26,751 bases of DNA from IMG/VR virus record IMGVR_UViG_2534681936_000019; one strand, given 5' to 3'. Below are positions 340-20,575 of this stretch, piece by piece (within the stretch, counting starts at the first letter, position 1; the number at the start of each line of letters is the position of its first letter). The position numbers and the translations under genes were made by a program. The notes beneath the pieces were generated by a model. It was given only the letters and a program-made list of their open reading frames with translations, was not told where the DNA came from and searched no databases. Source of the DNA: a virus (Duplodnaviria; Heunggongvirae; Uroviricota; Caudoviricetes).

Positions 340-1845
340 TCATGGCATGGCCATGAGCATTTTCATGTCCGCATCACCGTCTGCTGACGTCTGTGGCACG
401 CCACCCTGTACCGCAGCCGGTGAATGGTTCGCCATGATGCGTTCAAACAGGGCGGTTGTGGATGCAGAGACCGGTTCTGCCTTACCTGATCCCGCAGCCA
501 GCACAGCCCGGGCGCTCTCCACAGTCATTCCCGGGCAGGCAGCCAGCTGTTCAGCCTGCGCCTCAGCCCCTTTTGCCTCATCCAGTGCCATGATCTGATC
601 ACGGAGTGAGGGTCCGGCATCCGCCTGCGGTGAAGCAGCCAGGATCGGGCGGGCTTTTTCCACCGTCATCTCCGGCATCGCCGCCAGCGTTGCCGCCAGT
701 TGTTCACGACCGTTCGCTTCTTCACACGCCATAATGCGATCGGCTTCACTCTGCGTGGATGCCACCGGCTGCTGCGGTGCCGCCGCGGCCAGAATCGCCC
801 GGGCCTGTTCAACGCTCATGCCCTGTTGTCCTGCCAGCATCGTGGCAAGCTGTTCACGTCCTTTCGCTTCCTGGCATGTCAGGATCCCCATCACTCGCTG
901 GTTCTCCTGCGCGGCGGCTTCCGTTGCAGTTAATTGCGGCATAGTGCCTCCTCTGACATTACTGTTCAGCGCCGTGGCCATCACACTGATGGCATCCGAC
1001 GCATTGATTAATTCATCCGCCAGCCCGGCCTCAATGCCGGACTGACCTTCAAAAACGGCGGCCTCTGTTCCCGTGACGGCATCAACAGACAACCCGGTAT
1101 ACATCGCCACTTTTTCGGCAAACATCCGGCGCGCCGCATCAATCCGCTGCTGCATGTCCTGGCGAACCTCTGCCGGCAACGCTTCAAACTGATTGCCATC
1201 CACCTTGTGCGCCCCTGAGTAAATCAGCGTGATATCCACACCGGCCTGCGCCAGATGACCGGCATAGCTGACATGGCTCATCATCACGCCAATGGAGCCG
1301 ATACGGGATGTCTGGGTAACCAGCCGTCGGGAGCAGGCCGACGCCAGCAGCATGGCTGCAGAACAGGCCGTGTCATTGCACAGTGCCCAGACCGGCTTCT
1401 GCTGACGGAGGCGGTAAATCATGTCAGCGCAGTCAAACGCGCCGGCGGCCTGCCCGCCCGGACTGTCAATGTCCAGCAGTACGCCCCGCACCTGGCTATC
1501 TGCCATTGCCTGCTGAAGACAGGCGACAATGCCGTCATAGCCAGTCATTCCGGAAAATGGCCGCATCCCCCCCAGCCGGTGCACCAGCGTGCCGGTCACC
1601 GGCAGTACAGCAATACCGTTCACCACCCGGTAAACACGGGCCGGTCGTTTACCTCCGGCCATGTACTCGTCCGTTTCAGCCAGCATTCCGGGAGCATCAA
1701 GCTGTACCTGCTGCTGTGGTACCGAAAGACTTGCTGCCCCCATCTCGCGCCCGAGCGCGCAAAAGAAAACCCGCGCATAGGCGGGCTCCAGAAGCAGCGG
1801 TTCATTGAATGCTGCGGCAATAATGTGTGAAAGATTACGTCTCAC
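340..1845 (-). CDS. C: Prohead maturation protease / scaffold (S49 SppA-ClpP-like peptidase, lambda gpC family) with a repeat-containing C-terminal scaffold domain
   Basis: 501-aa ORF in lambda order after the portal gene; protease-like N-terminal two thirds; C-terminal part carries repeated ~36-aa units (IMAxxEAxGREQLAxxLAxxPxMTVExARxILAA). Confidence 0.85.
   Translation of the reverse strand: MRRNLSHIIAAAFNEPLLLEPAYARVFFCALGREMGAASLSVPQQQVQLDAPGMLAETDEYMAGGKRPARVYRVVNGIAVLPVTGTLVHRLGGMRPFSGMTGYDGIVACLQQAMADSQVRGVLLDIDSPGGQAAGAFDCADMIYRLRQQKPVWALCNDTACSAAMLLASACSRRLVTQTSRIGSIGVMMSHVSYAGHLAQAGVDITLIYSGAHKVDGNQFEALPAEVRQDMQQRIDAARRMFAEKVAMYTGLSVDAVTGTEAAVFEGQSGIEAGLADELINASDAISVMATALNSNVRGGTMPQLTATEAAAQENQRVMGILTCQEAKGREQLATMLAGQQGMSVEQARAILAAAAPQQPVASTQSEADRIMACEEANGREQLAATLAAMPEMTVEKARPILAASPQADAGPSLRDQIMALDEAKGAEAQAEQLAACPGMTVESARAVLAAGSGKAEPVSASTTALFERIMANHSPAAVQGGVPQTSADGDADMKMLMAMP
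435..945 (-). repeat. In-frame tandem repeats (three full and one partial ~36-aa unit) inside the C-terminal scaffold region of gene C
   Basis: Protein-level repeats MGILTCQEAKGREQLATMLAG..., IMACEEANGREQLAATLAAMPEMTVEKARPILAA..., IMALDEAKGAEAQAEQLAACPGMTVESARAVLAA..., FERIMANHSP... Confidence 0.5.
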
Positions 1846-7243: not shown

Positions 7244-7468
7244 TCAACACACTGGCTGTAATGCAGCGGATACCATGCGGCATTTAGCGGCATTCATCGT
7301 ACACTCCACGGTTAGCTCTTCATTCGTGGCATTCACCTGAAAGGTCCGGGAGTGTAATTGCGTACATTTACCACTGAACGAACCTTCAACAAGAACACGA
7401 CCACGCTGCAAAATACGGAACGGAATTGTTCCCTGAAAAGGTTCTACGGTTACCCGTAATTTCTTCAT
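7244..7468 (-). CDS. Hypothetical 74-aa protein directly downstream of Rz
   Basis: [24 protein letters not shown]... whose start overlaps the Rz stop; no recognisable family. Confidence 0.35.
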
Positions 7469-7959
7469 GTATCCTCCGGATAATAAAAAGCCAGCTTAGT
7501 GCACTGAGTGCGGATATATTCCTGCGCCCCTTCCAGCTGCTTCTGCATTGTCATCAACCGTTCTCTGAGGATGAAATAATCCCGTTCAGCGGTGTCTGCC
7601 AGTCGGGGGCCGGTTGCATTATCCACGCTGGAGGTGCCGGTGGCTTCACGCACGGTACCGGGGCAGGTGGCGTTGACCCGCAGGCGCTTACGACCAGCGG
7701 CAACATCAGCGCGCAGAGTTTCAATTTCAGCTCTCGCATCGGCTAATTCCTTCGTGTATCTGGCATCAAGCGCAGCGACATCTCGCTGGCGCTGCTGCAT
7801 GTCAGTAATAGTGGCATTCGCCAGTTTCAGCTCACTGACTTTTTTATCGCGCTGCGCTTTGTAGGTGATGGCGTTATCGCGGTAATGATTCAGCCCCAGA
7901 CTAAGCACACCACAGGCTACCAGCAGGACAATAATCACCACACACAGAACACGGTTCAT
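7465..7959 (-). CDS. Rz: Rz inner-membrane spanin (i-spanin)
   Basis: From the internal start [40 protein letters not shown]...[25 protein letters not shown], near-collinear with lambda Rz; N-terminal TM helix. Confidence 0.85.
7554..7739 (-). CDS. Rz1: Rz1 outer-membrane lipoprotein spanin (o-spanin), embedded in Rz in the +1 frame
   Basis: [56 protein letters not shown]: lipobox plus proline-rich sequence matching lambda Rz1. Confidence 0.8.
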
Positions 7960-7960
7960 A

Positions 7961-8047
7961 TCACCACCAACGGATTGCCCAGACCAGAACAGCAATGGCC
8001 ACAATACGAATGGCAAATGCCATTGCCCGAATAAGTTCAGCACTCAT
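7961..8047 (-). CDS. Candidate 28-aa hydrophobic peptide immediately upstream of Rz
   Basis: [28 protein letters not shown]; stop adjoins the Rz ATG; sequence resembles the C-terminal segment of the neighbouring small ORF (RALAFAIKWVAVGIAV). Confidence 0.25.
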
Positions 8048-8058
8048 CTTTTTAAAGT

Positions 8059-8309
8059 TCACGATTTCAGCGCAATGACCAGTTTTGCCAGCCCATACAG
8101 CATCGGAGACACAGCAATACCAACAGCCACCCACTTAATAGCAAAAGCCAGCGCTCTGCTGATGTCATCAGTCACTGTCACCCCAGCAGCCCCGACGAAG
8201 ACAACATCACCCAGGCGAGGGACAGAAAAAGAGCAACCAGCATTAGTGAAAATGAAATACCGACAATCACACACAGGACCTTTGCCGGCGTTATGAGTTT
8301 GTCTGACAT
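8059..8309 (-). CDS. Candidate ~83-aa two-TM small membrane protein, frameshifted at a G-run
   Basis: ATG at 8309 with AAGGGG RBS gives MSDKLITPAKVLCVIVGISFSLMLVALFLSLAWVMLSSSG, then continues in another frame as ...GVTVTDDISRALAFAIKWVAVGIAVSPMLYGLAKLVIALKS (ORF 8059..8331). Confidence 0.3.
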
Positions 8310-8311
8310 AG

Positions 8312-8407
8312 CTACCCCTTAATTGCCACAATTAACTGGGATACTACCCATAAAAAAGGGATGCTCCAGACCAGCAAAAATTTCCAGTTTGGTAATTGAC
8401 TAATCAT
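8312..8407 (-). CDS. Candidate 31-aa single-TM peptide downstream of the endolysin
   Basis: Internal ATG at 8407 preceded by GGGAG about 9 nt upstream; MISQLPNWKFLLVWSIPFLWVVSQLIVAIKG. Confidence 0.3.
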   Translation of the reverse strand: MISQLPNWKFLLVWSIPFLWVVSQLIVAIKG

Positions 8408-8474
8408 GAGTCGCAACTCCCTAATCAGTTTGCTAAAATCAATCAAGGCAGCCTCCCATAGCTTACTGCCATAA

Positions 8475-8518
8475 AAACAAAACCCCGCTTGCTGCCAACA
8501 AACGGGGTTTTTACTTTT
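8475..8518. terminator. Intrinsic terminator hairpin downstream of the endolysin gene (T-tracts on both strands)
   Basis: AACCCCG ... CGGGGTT stem with a 15-nt loop, followed by TTTTTACTTTTAT on plus and TTTTGTTTTTAT on minus. Confidence 0.5.
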
Positions 8519-8601
8519 ATTCACTTACGTTTCGCCAGTTCGCAGGATTTCATGTTATCCGCCCGCGTGGCCATGCCTTATTTTTCAGCAAAATATTCTG
8601 C

Positions 8602-20207: not shown

Positions 20208-20363
20208 TTACTCCTCAGGTTCGTAAGCTGTGAAGACAGCGACCTCCGTCTGGCCGGTTCGGATTCGTACCTCGCAGAGGTCTTTCCTCGTTACCAGTGC
20301 CGTCACTATGACGGTTAAACAGATGACGATCAGGGCGATTAACATCGCCTTTTGCTGCTTCAT
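20208..20363 (-). CDS. hok: Hok-family type I toxin (HokD/RelF-like, 51 aa)
   Basis: MKQQKAMLIALIVICLTVIVTALVTRKDLCEVRIRTGQTEVAVFTAYEPEE, a Hok/Gef sequence; below the ORF-track size cut-off. Confidence 0.9.
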   Translation of the reverse strand: MKQQKAMLIALIVICLTVIVTALVTRKDLCEVRIRTGQTEVAVFTAYEPEE

Positions 20364-20421
20364 AGCCTGCTTCTCCTTGACCTTTTGGTCCGTAAGAGGC
20401 TAACCTACATGTGTCTAGCAT
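20215..20421 (-). CDS. mok: mok-like overlapping reading frame (modulation of killing)
   Basis: 68-aa ORF in another frame covering almost all of hok, as in hok/mok/sok loci. Confidence 0.55.
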   Translation of the reverse strand: MLDTCRLASYGPKGQGEAGYEAAKGDVNRPDRHLFNRHSDGTGNEERPLRGTNPNRPDGGRCLHSLRT

Positions 20422-20575
20422 GAAATTGGCCTCAGATTAATGTTAAGCGTCTTGCAGGACGCGTAATGTTAACTGGGGCTTTTCTCTATCTGCCTTTGGT
20501 GTTCATGCCCGAGGCAGATAGCCTCAAGCACCCGCAGCCATTCTACTTAACTACCGTTACCTCGCCAATGTGAAA

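What the first reader, a model, noticed from the sequence alone, without database searches (positions are those of the whole stretch)
7961..8407. String of small hydrophobic ORFs between endolysin and Rz, two of them related to each other
In lambda and phage 21 the endolysin is followed directly by Rz. Here about 560 bp intervene, containing a bidirectional terminator hairpin and three short minus-strand ORFs with good RBSs that encode hydrophobic peptides (31 aa; ~83 aa with two TM segments, frameshifted; 28 aa). The 28-aa peptide ([17 protein letters not shown]) resembles the C-terminal TM segment of the 83-aa ORF (RALAFAIKWVAVGIAVS), suggesting an internal duplication. These could be extra holin or antiholin-like lysis regulators, small membrane toxins, or remnants of a decayed membrane-protein gene.
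Basis: seen in the sequence. Interest (0 to 1): 0.5.

Follow-up and report, generated by a model that had tools for sequence, protein, structure and literature searches.

The report
Tiny membrane-protein genes between endolysin and Rz
The gap between the endolysin and spanin genes of this Shiga-toxin-type E. coli prophage holds four real, conserved but uncharacterised genes for very small membrane proteins, placed behind a transcription terminator, that probably act at the membrane late in infection.

Summary
The R-Rz interval is 642 bp. It holds a junction motif, a strong intrinsic terminator (8479-8511) and four tightly packed minus-strand genes.

- F3: 44 aa from TTG 8446.
- F2: 43 aa.
- F1a: 40 aa. 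Its GTG overlaps the F2 stop (GTGA).
- F1b: 28 aa. Its stop lies 1 nt before the Rz ATG.

There is no frameshifted 83-aa gene. F2 keeps the same stop in every cassette type, and fused forms are singletons. F1b is a true paralogue of F1a.

All families show synonymous excess. They recur in Escherichia, Salmonella, Citrobacter, Cronobacter and Providencia; F3 also in Pantoea, Yersinia and Pseudomonas. They have no Pfam, NCBIfam or PADLOC match. F2 precedes Rz in 933W-type Stx phages. An unannotated F3 sits between R and Rz in H-19B.

The unit "terminator + leader + small gene" follows at least five unrelated endolysin types. F3 also sits between baseplate genes V and J, so the link to lysis is not exclusive.

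Best reading: late-expressed accessory membrane peptides, probably lysis modulators. Function is untested.

The parts
8602..9135 (-). SAR-type endolysin R (177 aa), upstream neighbour of the insert
   Evidence: Pfam Phage_lysozyme, 1.4e-24. Annotated as lysozyme in CB9615.
8580..8601 (-). Junction motif GCAGAATATTTTGCTGAAAAAT immediately after the R stop. It marks the left end of the insert.
   Evidence: Unique in the window, with 0 matches expected by chance. Present in 166 of 257 fetched loci. It follows a different endolysin in Providencia and a small lipoprotein gene in L246. No covariation supports an RNA structure.
8469..8516 (-). Intrinsic terminator: A-tract, 15-pair stem-loop 8511-8479, T-tract. 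Potentially bidirectional.
   Evidence: Terminator scan. An equivalent hairpin precedes the small genes in Salmonella, Providencia, Pantoea, Yersinia, Sodalis and Pseudomonas phage loci. The arm sequences differ, but each folds into a terminator-like hairpin.
8312..8446 (-). F3: 44-aa tail-anchored membrane peptide. TTG start 8446, SD GGGAGG 8457-8452.
   Evidence: phrog_6632. Homologues keep IDFSKLIRELRLM. Across the 13 extra codons, window versus Providencia shows the start-codon change plus 3 synonymous and no other non-synonymous differences. pS 0.47 against pN 0.11, p=4e-5. Uncharged run of 20 aa.
8178..8309 (-). F2: 43-aa single-TM peptide. ATG lies 2 nt after the F3 stop; SD AAGGGG.
   Evidence: phrog_4906, 4.5e-21. 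211 database proteins, mostly listed at 43-49 aa. tblastn hits in 276 phage records, including 933W-type Stx phages, where it lies between ant and Rz. dN/dS 0.25-0.4.
8059..8181 (-). F1a: 40-aa single-TM peptide. GTG 8181 overlaps the F2 stop as GTGA (alternative GTG 8175). It is an N-terminally short copy of the 48/60-aa family.
   Evidence: phrog_3246, phrog_1115 and phrog_4493. Homologues. The same GTG-overlap ORF occurs in the type C cassette. Core against the full-length paralogue: Sd 6/28.5 versus Nd 1/79.5, p=0.0012. Full-length 48-codon E. coli/Salmonella alleles give dN/dS 0.06-0.14.
7961..8047 (-). F1b: 28-aa paralogue of F1a ending in RWW. Its stop lies 1 nt before the Rz ATG, and its last codons form the Rz Shine-Dalgarno (GGTGGTGA).
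   Evidence: phrog_4493, 3.8e-6. BLASTP to F1 forms. Divergent allele MSTDFIRATAFAIRLVAIAVLIWAVRWW has the same length, with pS 0.37 against pN 0.12, p=0.014. Annotated WP_032140280.
7465..7959 (-). Rz i-spanin (164 aa) with embedded Rz1 (7554-7739). Downstream neighbour, translationally abutted to F1b.
   Evidence: Pfam Phage_lysis, 7.4e-51. ORF list.

Best explanation
What it is (high confidence, about 0.9). A 642-bp accessory insert sits in the late lysis cassette of a lambdoid, Stx-phage-like E. coli prophage. It consists of a junction motif, a strong intrinsic terminator, and four head-to-tail genes for 28-44-aa single-helix inner-membrane peptides. The peptides belong to three families: F3, F2, and the tandem paralogues F1a and F1b. 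The genes are separated by 2, -4, 11 and 1 nt and run straight into Rz/Rz1.

How it most likely works (inferred, about 0.4).
- Only about 12-25 nt separate the terminator's T-tract from the first Shine-Dalgarno, and no promoter-like site was found on that strand. The genes can therefore be transcribed only by polymerase that reads through the terminator.
- That means the Q-antiterminated late transcript that also makes holin, endolysin and spanin. In the lysogen the terminator keeps them silent.
- They are then translated as a coupled string with Rz and insert into the inner membrane. Each has a short cytoplasmic N-terminus and a C-terminal anchor.
- There they act as accessory, dispensable modulators of the late membrane events of infection. 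The most probable role is tuning when or how completely the pinholin, SAR-endolysin and spanin pathway fires.
- F3 and the full-length 60-aa F1a found in other cassettes keep an internal SD plus ATG 13 codons (F3) or 12 codons (F1a) into the gene. This could give long and short products, as in holin/antiholin pairs. The window's own 40-aa F1a copy lacks that N-terminal region.

Shown: gene reality, conservation, architecture and cassette modularity. Inferred: late-only expression, membrane insertion, and any effect on lysis.
For: Anatomy and coupling.

Terminator and promoters: the scan found the terminator, and the only promoter-like site in 7400-9300 lies on the opposite strand.

Identical 661 bp occurs in complete E. 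coli genomes. 2076 of 5426 genomes match at least part and 578 match 80% or more. RefSeq annotates hypothetical proteins there.

Families: PHROG families of unknown function. No Pfam, NCBIfam or PADLOC family.

Cassette types show the genes as shuffled modules with fixed ends:
- A: F1a-F2-Rz
- B: the window
- C: F1a-F2-F1a40-F1b-Rz
- D: ant-like-F3-F2-F1a-F1b-Rz

Purifying selection.

The same unit follows unrelated endolysins:
- P21-type lysozyme (window)
- GH108
- GH19
- Peptidase_M15_4
- CHAP-like, in Providencia

The unit lies directly upstream of Rz in H-19B, SPN3UB, 933W-type phages, Citrobacter and a Salmonella remnant.

Conserved terminator plus leader. Conserved internal SD and Met14. 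Hydrophobicity.

Intra-operon terminators in lambdoid late operons have been noted, with the suggested role of stopping transcription that lacks antitermination (PMC8022706).
Against: - There is no experimental or expression evidence, and nothing was found in the literature.
- F3 with its terminator and leader also sits between baseplate genes V and J in Pantoea, and between large ORFs in the same order and sizes in Yersinia (no Pfam hit there) and in SEN34 (by its annotation). It also sits among tail genes of a Pseudomonas phage. F1 occurs in a structural module in L087. The link to lysis is therefore positional and not exclusive.
- Those phage types are not known to use Q-type antitermination, so read-through logic may not explain the terminator there.
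- The peptides lack the charged C-terminal tail typical of holins and hit no holin family.
- The R-Rz junction also accepts an unrelated antirepressor gene, so it may simply be a permissive insertion site.
- GC content is 46% in the insert (38.5% in F3), against about 54% in R and Rz. This fits foreign accessory DNA.
- The leader hairpin that would mask the SD is no more stable than shuffled sequence.
Confidence: 0.42

Rival explanations
1. Accessory 'moron'-type cargo unrelated to lysis. The small membrane peptides would benefit phage or host in another way: exclusion of superinfecting phage DNA, interference with a membrane-bound host defence, or altered envelope properties. They would sit at R-Rz only because gene junctions in late operons tolerate insertions.
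For: - The F3 unit lies between baseplate V and J genes and among tail genes. F1 lies in a structural module.
- The same junction holds an antirepressor gene in 933W-type phages.
- The insert has lower GC than its flanks.
- A Salmonella prophage remnant keeps an intact F1-Rz pair next to core genes in a very large number of assemblies (listed in 1647 blocks of the collection).
- Small inner-membrane morons with exclusion activity are established, for example HK97 gp15 (own knowledge; review PMC3594210, seen in the hit list but not read).
Against: - Classical morons carry their own promoter upstream and terminator downstream and are expressed in the lysogen. Here the terminator is upstream, only about 12-25 nt precede the SD, and no promoter-like site lies on the coding strand.
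- The genes are translationally chained to Rz.
- There is no PADLOC hit.
Confidence: 0.33
2. Mobile micro-cassettes kept mainly by their own spread. The conserved 5' end (A-tract, hairpin, leader and the first 14 codons) and the conserved 3' end (RWW-stop or KG-stop) would act as recombination handles. These would move variable TM-coding cores between late operons, with peptide function secondary.
For: - The 5' unit is nearly identical from E. coli to Pseudomonas phage, while the TM-coding part is replaced.
- Several codons of the first 14 do not vary even at third positions, including the rare CGA.
- The RWW-stop ending is shared by F3b, F1b and an F1a variant.
- Insertion sites are diverse.
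Against: - The peptide cores are themselves under purifying selection.
- No recombinase or target duplication was seen.
- Homologous recombination between related phages plus selection at gene boundaries explains such mosaics without dedicated mobility.
Confidence: 0.12
3. Type I toxin-antitoxin-like loci. The small hydrophobic peptides would be toxins held in check by an antisense RNA made from the plus strand and ended by the bidirectional terminator.
For: - The peptides have the size and hydrophobicity of type I toxins.
- A plus-strand promoter-like site at 8303-8332 would give an RNA of about 175 nt antisense to the F3 start, ending at the hairpin.
- The same window carries a hok/sok-type locus elsewhere.
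Against: - Only one promoter-like site was found, where 2.1 are expected by chance.
- Its hexamers lie in F2 and F3 codons and are absent where F2 is absent, as in Providencia and H-19B.
- There is no Rfam match above noise.
- Four tandem coupled genes running into Rz do not fit a stand-alone TA unit.
Confidence: 0.06
4. Decayed remnants of a larger membrane-protein gene (frameshifted pseudogene), or chance hydrophobic frames in a spacer.
For: - F2 and F1a frames overlap, and rare 79-83-aa fused proteins exist in databases.
- RefSeq gives F1a an odd 51-aa model with a non-standard CTG start (read from the sequence at the coordinates).
Against: - There is no indel among 68 copies.
- F2 has the same stop in all cassette types, and F1a exists alone elsewhere.
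- Fused forms are singletons.
- Synonymous excess is significant in every family.
- Variable sites are most frequent at third codon positions in every family (chi-square p<0.01 for F1a, F3 and F4, 0.054 for F2, not significant for F1b).
Confidence: 0.03

Closest known systems
Holin/antiholin pairs with dual starts (lambda S107/S105; phage 21 S21-71/S21-68)
   Same: Small membrane proteins encoded in the lysis cassette and made only from the Q-dependent late transcript. F3, and the 60-aa F1a found in other cassettes, keep an internal SD plus Met a few codons into the gene. The longer form adds charged residues.
   Different: One short helix instead of two or three TMDs. No charged C-terminal tail. 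No match to any holin family in Pfam or PHROGs. The cassette already has its own P21-type holin. F3 also occurs outside lysis cassettes.
Accessory lysis genes placed between endolysin and spanin genes (P2 lysA, between K and lysB/lysC)
   Same: Non-essential membrane-protein gene in the same position of the cassette. It is thought to affect lysis timing (own knowledge).
   Different: LysA is a much larger multi-TMD protein with no sequence relation. The P2 cassette has no guarding terminator, as far as I know.
XhlA of Bacillus PBSX-type lysis modules (Pfam PF10779)
   Same: A short cytoplasmic helical N-terminus plus a single C-terminal membrane anchor, encoded beside holin and endolysin (own knowledge).
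   Different: Gram-positive, about 90 aa, and no sequence match.
Morons encoding small inner-membrane proteins in late operons (e.g. HK97 gp15; Pseudomonas phage morons)
   Same: Extra DNA between genes that are adjacent in relatives. Deviant GC. Small membrane products. Occurrence between tail or baseplate genes.
   Different: The moron definition expects promoter-gene-terminator and lysogenic expression. Here the order is terminator-gene with no promoter room.
Type I toxins (hok, ldr, ibs, tisB)
   Same: Hydrophobic peptides of 28-44 aa. Expression is heavily restrained.
   Different: No antitoxin RNA or own promoter was detected. The genes are polycistronic with Rz.

Membership tests
Holin / antiholin | Encoded in the lysis cassette beside the endolysin | tested here: met
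   Lies between R and Rz in the window. It follows five unrelated endolysin types elsewhere. However, F3 and F1 also occur in baseplate or structural modules.
Holin / antiholin | Sequence membership in a described holin family | tested here: not met
   No holin family in Pfam or NCBIfam. The PHROG hits are all 'unknown function'.
Holin / antiholin | At least one TMD plus a hydrophilic, charged C-terminal domain | tested here: not met
   One hydrophobic helix each, but the C-termini are only 0-3 residues past it (KG, RWW) or 8 with two Lys.
Holin / antiholin | Dual-start motif giving two products | tested here: inconclusive
   In F3, Met14 and an upstream (A/C)GG-GAG are conserved in nearly all alleles. 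An equivalent GAGG-N6-ATG occurs in the 60-aa F1a of other cassettes. No translation data exist.
Holin / antiholin | Lethal, timed membrane permeabilisation, or inhibition of it | not testable with these tools
   Needs induction and expression experiments.
Moron (independent accessory transcription unit) | Extra DNA between genes that are adjacent in related phages | tested here: met
   R and Rz overlap by 4 nt in K-12 Qin. The insert is 642 bp here.
Moron (independent accessory transcription unit) | Own promoter upstream and terminator downstream; expressed in the lysogen | tested here: not met
   The terminator is upstream. About 12-25 nt lie between the T-tract and the SD. No promoter-like site lies on the coding strand. 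Expression itself was not testable.
Moron (independent accessory transcription unit) | Base composition unlike the flanking genes | tested here: met
   Insert 46.1% GC (F3 38.5%), against R 54.7% and Rz 54.1%.
Type I toxin-antitoxin | Small hydrophobic toxin peptide | tested here: met
   28-44 aa, with best KD windows of 1.9-2.8. Toxicity was not tested.
Type I toxin-antitoxin | Cognate antisense or divergent antitoxin RNA with its own promoter | tested here: not met
   There is one non-conserved promoter-like site, with 2.1 expected by chance. Nothing in Rfam is above noise.
Two-component spanin (Rz/Rz1-like) | i-spanin: N-terminal TMD plus a long periplasmic coiled coil. o-spanin: lipobox. 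| tested here: not met
   At most about 10 residues lie beyond the helix, and there is no lipobox. The genuine Rz/Rz1 follow at 7465-7959.
Frameshifted pseudogene of an ~83-aa membrane protein | An intact full-length family exists, and the window copy differs from it by an indel | tested here: not met
   Fused forms are singletons. There is no indel in 68 copies. F2 and F1a occur separately.

The most novel reading that the evidence does not exclude
The unit 'bidirectional terminator + conserved leader + dual-start tail-anchored micro-protein' may be a distinct, widely exchanged class of late-operon cassette in phages of Enterobacterales and Pseudomonas. Its peptides would be potent membrane effectors (lysis-timing or PMF-modulating factors) that must be kept silent by a terminator until antiterminated or high-level late transcription begins. 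In Stx phages they would co-determine the timing of lysis and hence of toxin release.
Probability: 0.22. Interest if true: 0.7.

Novelty: new variant of a known kind. Interest (0 to 1): 0.5.

Why it matters
Lysis cassettes of lambdoid phages are textbook material: holin, endolysin, spanin. Stx-phage lysis also controls Shiga-toxin release.

Most Stx-phage cassettes examined here carry one to four conserved genes for tiny membrane peptides between R and Rz. Some are unannotated, as in H-19B and SPN3UB. All are uncharacterised.

If they tune lysis timing, they add a regulatory layer to a model system and to toxin release. If they do something else, such as exclusion or counter-defence, they form a compact and easily testable set of phage micro-proteins. 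Their terminator-first gene organisation is unusual.

Tried and rejected
- **Known RNA families.** The gathering scan found nothing at the site. The permissive scan gave only sub-threshold terminator-shaped hits such as ohsC at 20 bits against a cut-off of 50.
- **Protein family libraries.** Pfam, NCBIfam and PADLOC gave no family for any peptide.
- **Literature.** Searches for peptide strings, WP_/YP_ accessions, ECs_5707 and 'antispanin' found nothing relevant. A Stx-phage lysis-cassette survey (PMC8136144) showed no mention of these ORFs in the passages examined.
- **Exhaustive profile search for F1.** It found only 14 clusters at 50% identity, so no distant informative relatives.
- **Antisense-RNA (type I TA) idea.** The single plus-strand promoter-like site lies in coding codons and is not conserved.
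- **Structured RNA in the 80 nt after R.** RNAalifold pairs the junction motif with a downstream segment. The pairs are invariant and the energy is -2.9 kcal/mol.
- **SD-masking leader hairpin.** It is predicted in most alleles, but z-scores are -1.6 to +0.7 against shuffles. An automatic consensus fold was misled by the terminator arm.
- **dN/dS within the window-type cassette.** The small-gene block is almost invariant among 21 haplotypes, so divergent cassette types were needed.
- **Structure prediction.** Not attempted. Single 28-44-aa helices would not be informative.

Full report
**Setting.** The window is the late region of a lambdoid, Stx-phage-like E. coli prophage, read on the minus strand.
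- The order is: P21-type holin (10172-10447), a 329-aa DUF1327-containing ORF (9178-10167), a SAR-type lysozyme R (8602-9135), the region in question, then Rz (7465-7959) with embedded Rz1 (7554-7739).
- The 661 bp around the finding are 100% identical in complete genomes such as O55:H7 CB9615 and O103:H2 12009.
- 2076 of 5426 complete E. coli genomes match at least part of it, and 578 match 80% or more.
- RefSeq annotates three hypothetical proteins there, of 28, 51 and 43 aa.

**Anatomy**.
- The R stop is followed by the motif GCAGAATATTTTGCTGAAAAAT (8601-8580) and about 70 nt of allele-variable sequence.
- Next comes a 15-pair hairpin (8511-8479), flanked by an A-tract and a T-tract.
- About 12 nt after the T-run lies GGGAGG (8457-8452), then TTG at 8446. 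This opens a 44-aa frame (F3) ending at 8312.
- F2 (43 aa, 8309-8178) starts 2 nt after the F3 stop.
- The F2 stop overlaps a GTG (GGGGTGA). That GTG opens F1a (40 aa, 8181-8059).
- Eleven nt later F1b starts (28 aa, 8047-7961). Its stop lies one base before the Rz ATG.
- The last F1b codons (CGT TGG TGG TGA) supply the Rz Shine-Dalgarno.
- The interval is 642 bp, not about 560, and holds four genes.

**No frameshifted 83-aa gene.**
- Among 68 full-length copies of this cassette from IMG/VR and GenBank (21 haplotypes) there is no indel. The small-gene block is almost invariant.
- Other cassette types show the same genes as separable modules:
  - Type A (about 65 loci): F1a, F2, Rz.
  - Type C: F1a, F2, short F1a (the same GTGA overlap), F1b, Rz.
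  - Type D: an ant-like gene, an F3 variant, F2, F1a, F1b, Rz.
  - A Salmonella type: F1a, Rz.
- F2 ends at the same stop everywhere. That includes 933W-type Stx phages, where the order is S, R, terminator, ant, F2 (44-48 aa), Rz, bor. In Sakai this gene is ECs_5707.
- The 79-83-aa 'fused' proteins in the databases are single-member clusters.

**The duplication.**
- F1b is related to F1a: BLASTP E=2e-4 to the window copy and 8e-7 to the 38-aa form P0082.
- Both share PHROG families.
- Intermediates such as P0224 carry an F1a-like body ending in RWW.
- The window thus carries a tandem pair of paralogous genes, not an internal repeat in one ORF.

**Are they genes?** None matches Pfam, NCBIfam or PADLOC. 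All match PHROG families of unknown function. Homologues keep length and frame.
- F2: 211 proteins, most listed at 43-49 aa, from Escherichia, Shigella, Citrobacter and Cronobacter.
- F1: a narrow family, with 14 clusters at 50% identity in an exhaustive search.
- F3: Escherichia, Salmonella, Providencia, Cronobacter, Citrobacter, Pantoea, Brenneria, Sodalis, Yersinia and Pseudomonas.

Synonymous differences exceed non-synonymous ones in every family.
- F1a full-length alleles: dN/dS 0.06-0.14 at dS 0.26-1.3.
- The window's short F1a against the full-length paralogue: Sd 6/28.5 versus Nd 1/79.5 (p=0.0012).
- F2: dN/dS 0.25-0.4.
- F3, window versus Providencia: pS 0.47 versus pN 0.11 (p=4e-5).
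- F1b versus a divergent allele of equal length: p=0.014.

The peptide IDFSKLIRELRLM is kept as far as Pseudomonas phages. Each product has one hydrophobic helix, far above the background of other short ORFs in the window.

**Context elsewhere.** The recurring unit is terminator, about 35-nt leader, then F3 or full-length F1a.

It follows five unrelated endolysin types:

| Endolysin type | Where |
|---|---|
| P21-type lysozyme | window |
| GH108 | LT-II-toxin prophages and others |
| GH19 | Citrobacter |
| Peptidase_M15_4 | L088 |
| CHAP-like | Providencia |

- It usually precedes an i-spanin directly.
- H-19B carries a single unannotated F3-type gene between R and Rz.
- In GH108 and M15 cassettes, where no Rz/Rz1 is called, the small genes are followed by a 60-aa lipoprotein (phrog_7528).
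- The same F3 unit also lies between baseplate genes V and J in Pantoea, and in the matching position in Yersinia and Salmonella phage SEN34. It lies among tail genes of Pseudomonas phage YMC11/02/R656 as well.
- F1 occurs in a structural module in L087.
- The association with lysis is therefore strong but not exclusive.

**Mechanism.**
- There is no promoter-like site on the coding strand, and no room for one between terminator and SD. The block should therefore be transcribed only by read-through.
- In this prophage that means the Q-modified late transcript, and then translation in a coupled chain with Rz.
- A published analysis of phage L notes that intra-operon terminators occur in lambdoid late operons. 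Their roles are unknown, and one suggestion is that they stop transcription lacking antitermination (PMC8022706).
- A terminator guarding small membrane peptides suggests that leaky expression is harmful.
- F3 and the 60-aa F1a of other cassettes keep an internal SD and Met, which allows long and short products.
- I therefore favour late-expressed accessory membrane peptides that modulate the terminal membrane events of infection, probably lysis timing or completeness. I put this at about 0.4.
- A moron-type role unrelated to lysis is nearly as likely, at about 0.33. The low GC of the insert, the baseplate contexts and the ant gene at the same junction all fit it.
- Type I toxin-antitoxin and pseudogene readings are unlikely.

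**Novelty and interest.**
- The families exist in PHROGs and partly in RefSeq as hypothetical proteins. I found no functional study.
- The kind (small membrane proteins riding in phage late operons or lysis cassettes) is known.
- Three things are new as a variant: the terminator-first, promoter-less organisation; the modular shuffling of three families; and the near-universal presence of at least one such gene between R and Rz in the Stx-phage cassettes examined here.
- Interest is moderate (0.5). It is easily testable and relevant to Stx release, but function is entirely inferred.

Noticed in passing
window 9178-10167 (-): An intact 329-aa ORF lies between holin and endolysin. Its first 100 aa are DUF1327/YdfR, and its whole length matches phrog_1085 (E=2.5e-180). 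RefSeq CB9615 annotates only an 'incomplete YdfR family' pseudogene over part of it.
   Followed up: partly
window 8580-8601 (-); L254 419-438; L246 3474-3493: The 22-nt junction motif GCAGAATATTTTGCTGAAAAAT marks module boundaries in many cassettes. It follows different endolysins and, in GH108 cassettes, the small lipoprotein gene. It looks like a recombination linker. A predicted long-range pairing has no covariation support.
   Followed up: partly
L246 3279-3461; L086 2809-2991; L088 2656-2838: A conserved 60-aa lipoprotein (lipobox LVGC, phrog_7528, no Pfam) follows the small TM genes in GH108 and Peptidase_M15 lysis cassettes. No Rz/Rz1 pair is called in those cassettes. Its role (o-spanin-like, or exclusion lipoprotein) is unknown.
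   Followed up: partly
L246 2855-3004; L087 2682-2831: A fourth small TM family, F4 (49 aa, MIKAETTPQGADDAAK...), is joined to F1 by an ATGA overlap. It shows strong synonymous excess (pS 0.54 against pN 0.09, p=4e-8) and no PHROG or Pfam hit.
   Followed up: partly
L084 2172-2276; L260 (SPN3UB) about 1734-1845: Salmonella cassettes carry yet another hydrophobic ORF of about 34-36 aa (...GWGWFLLVGLIVM) overlapping the endolysin stop, just upstream of the junction motif.
   Followed up: no
window 8407-8446 and homologous loci: In the first 14 F3 codons, several (GAT, AGC, CGA; GAG in all intact alleles) do not vary at nucleotide level from E. coli to Pseudomonas phage, including the rare CGA and an (A/C)GG-GAG that doubles as an internal SD before Met14. 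This suggests constraint beyond the protein: a dual start or an RNA element.
   Followed up: partly
L255-L257 3001-3601: A Salmonella chromosomal prophage remnant next to ypfH keeps an intact F1 (49 aa, ending RWW) abutting Rz. It is listed in 1647 blocks of the assembly collection. The remnant boundary cuts inside the long-form N-terminus, leaving only the internal start.
   Followed up: partly
window 7244-7468 (-): The 74-aa ORF just after Rz matches only positions 100-172 of the 291-position phrog_2571. It is probably a gene fragment.
   Followed up: no
window 20361-20533 (-), 12899-13089 (-), 13169-13415 (-): A sok antitoxin RNA (110 bits), the STnc100 sRNA (138 bits) and three tRNA genes lie elsewhere in the prophage.
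   Followed up: no
L258 (H-19B) 675-812 (-); L260 (SPN3UB) 2001-2138: Published phage records lack an annotation for the F3-type gene between R and Rz. The listed H-19B Rz CDS (573 nt, 190 aa) starts at the normal Rz ATG and runs about 26 codons past the point where the window's Rz ends.
   Followed up: yes
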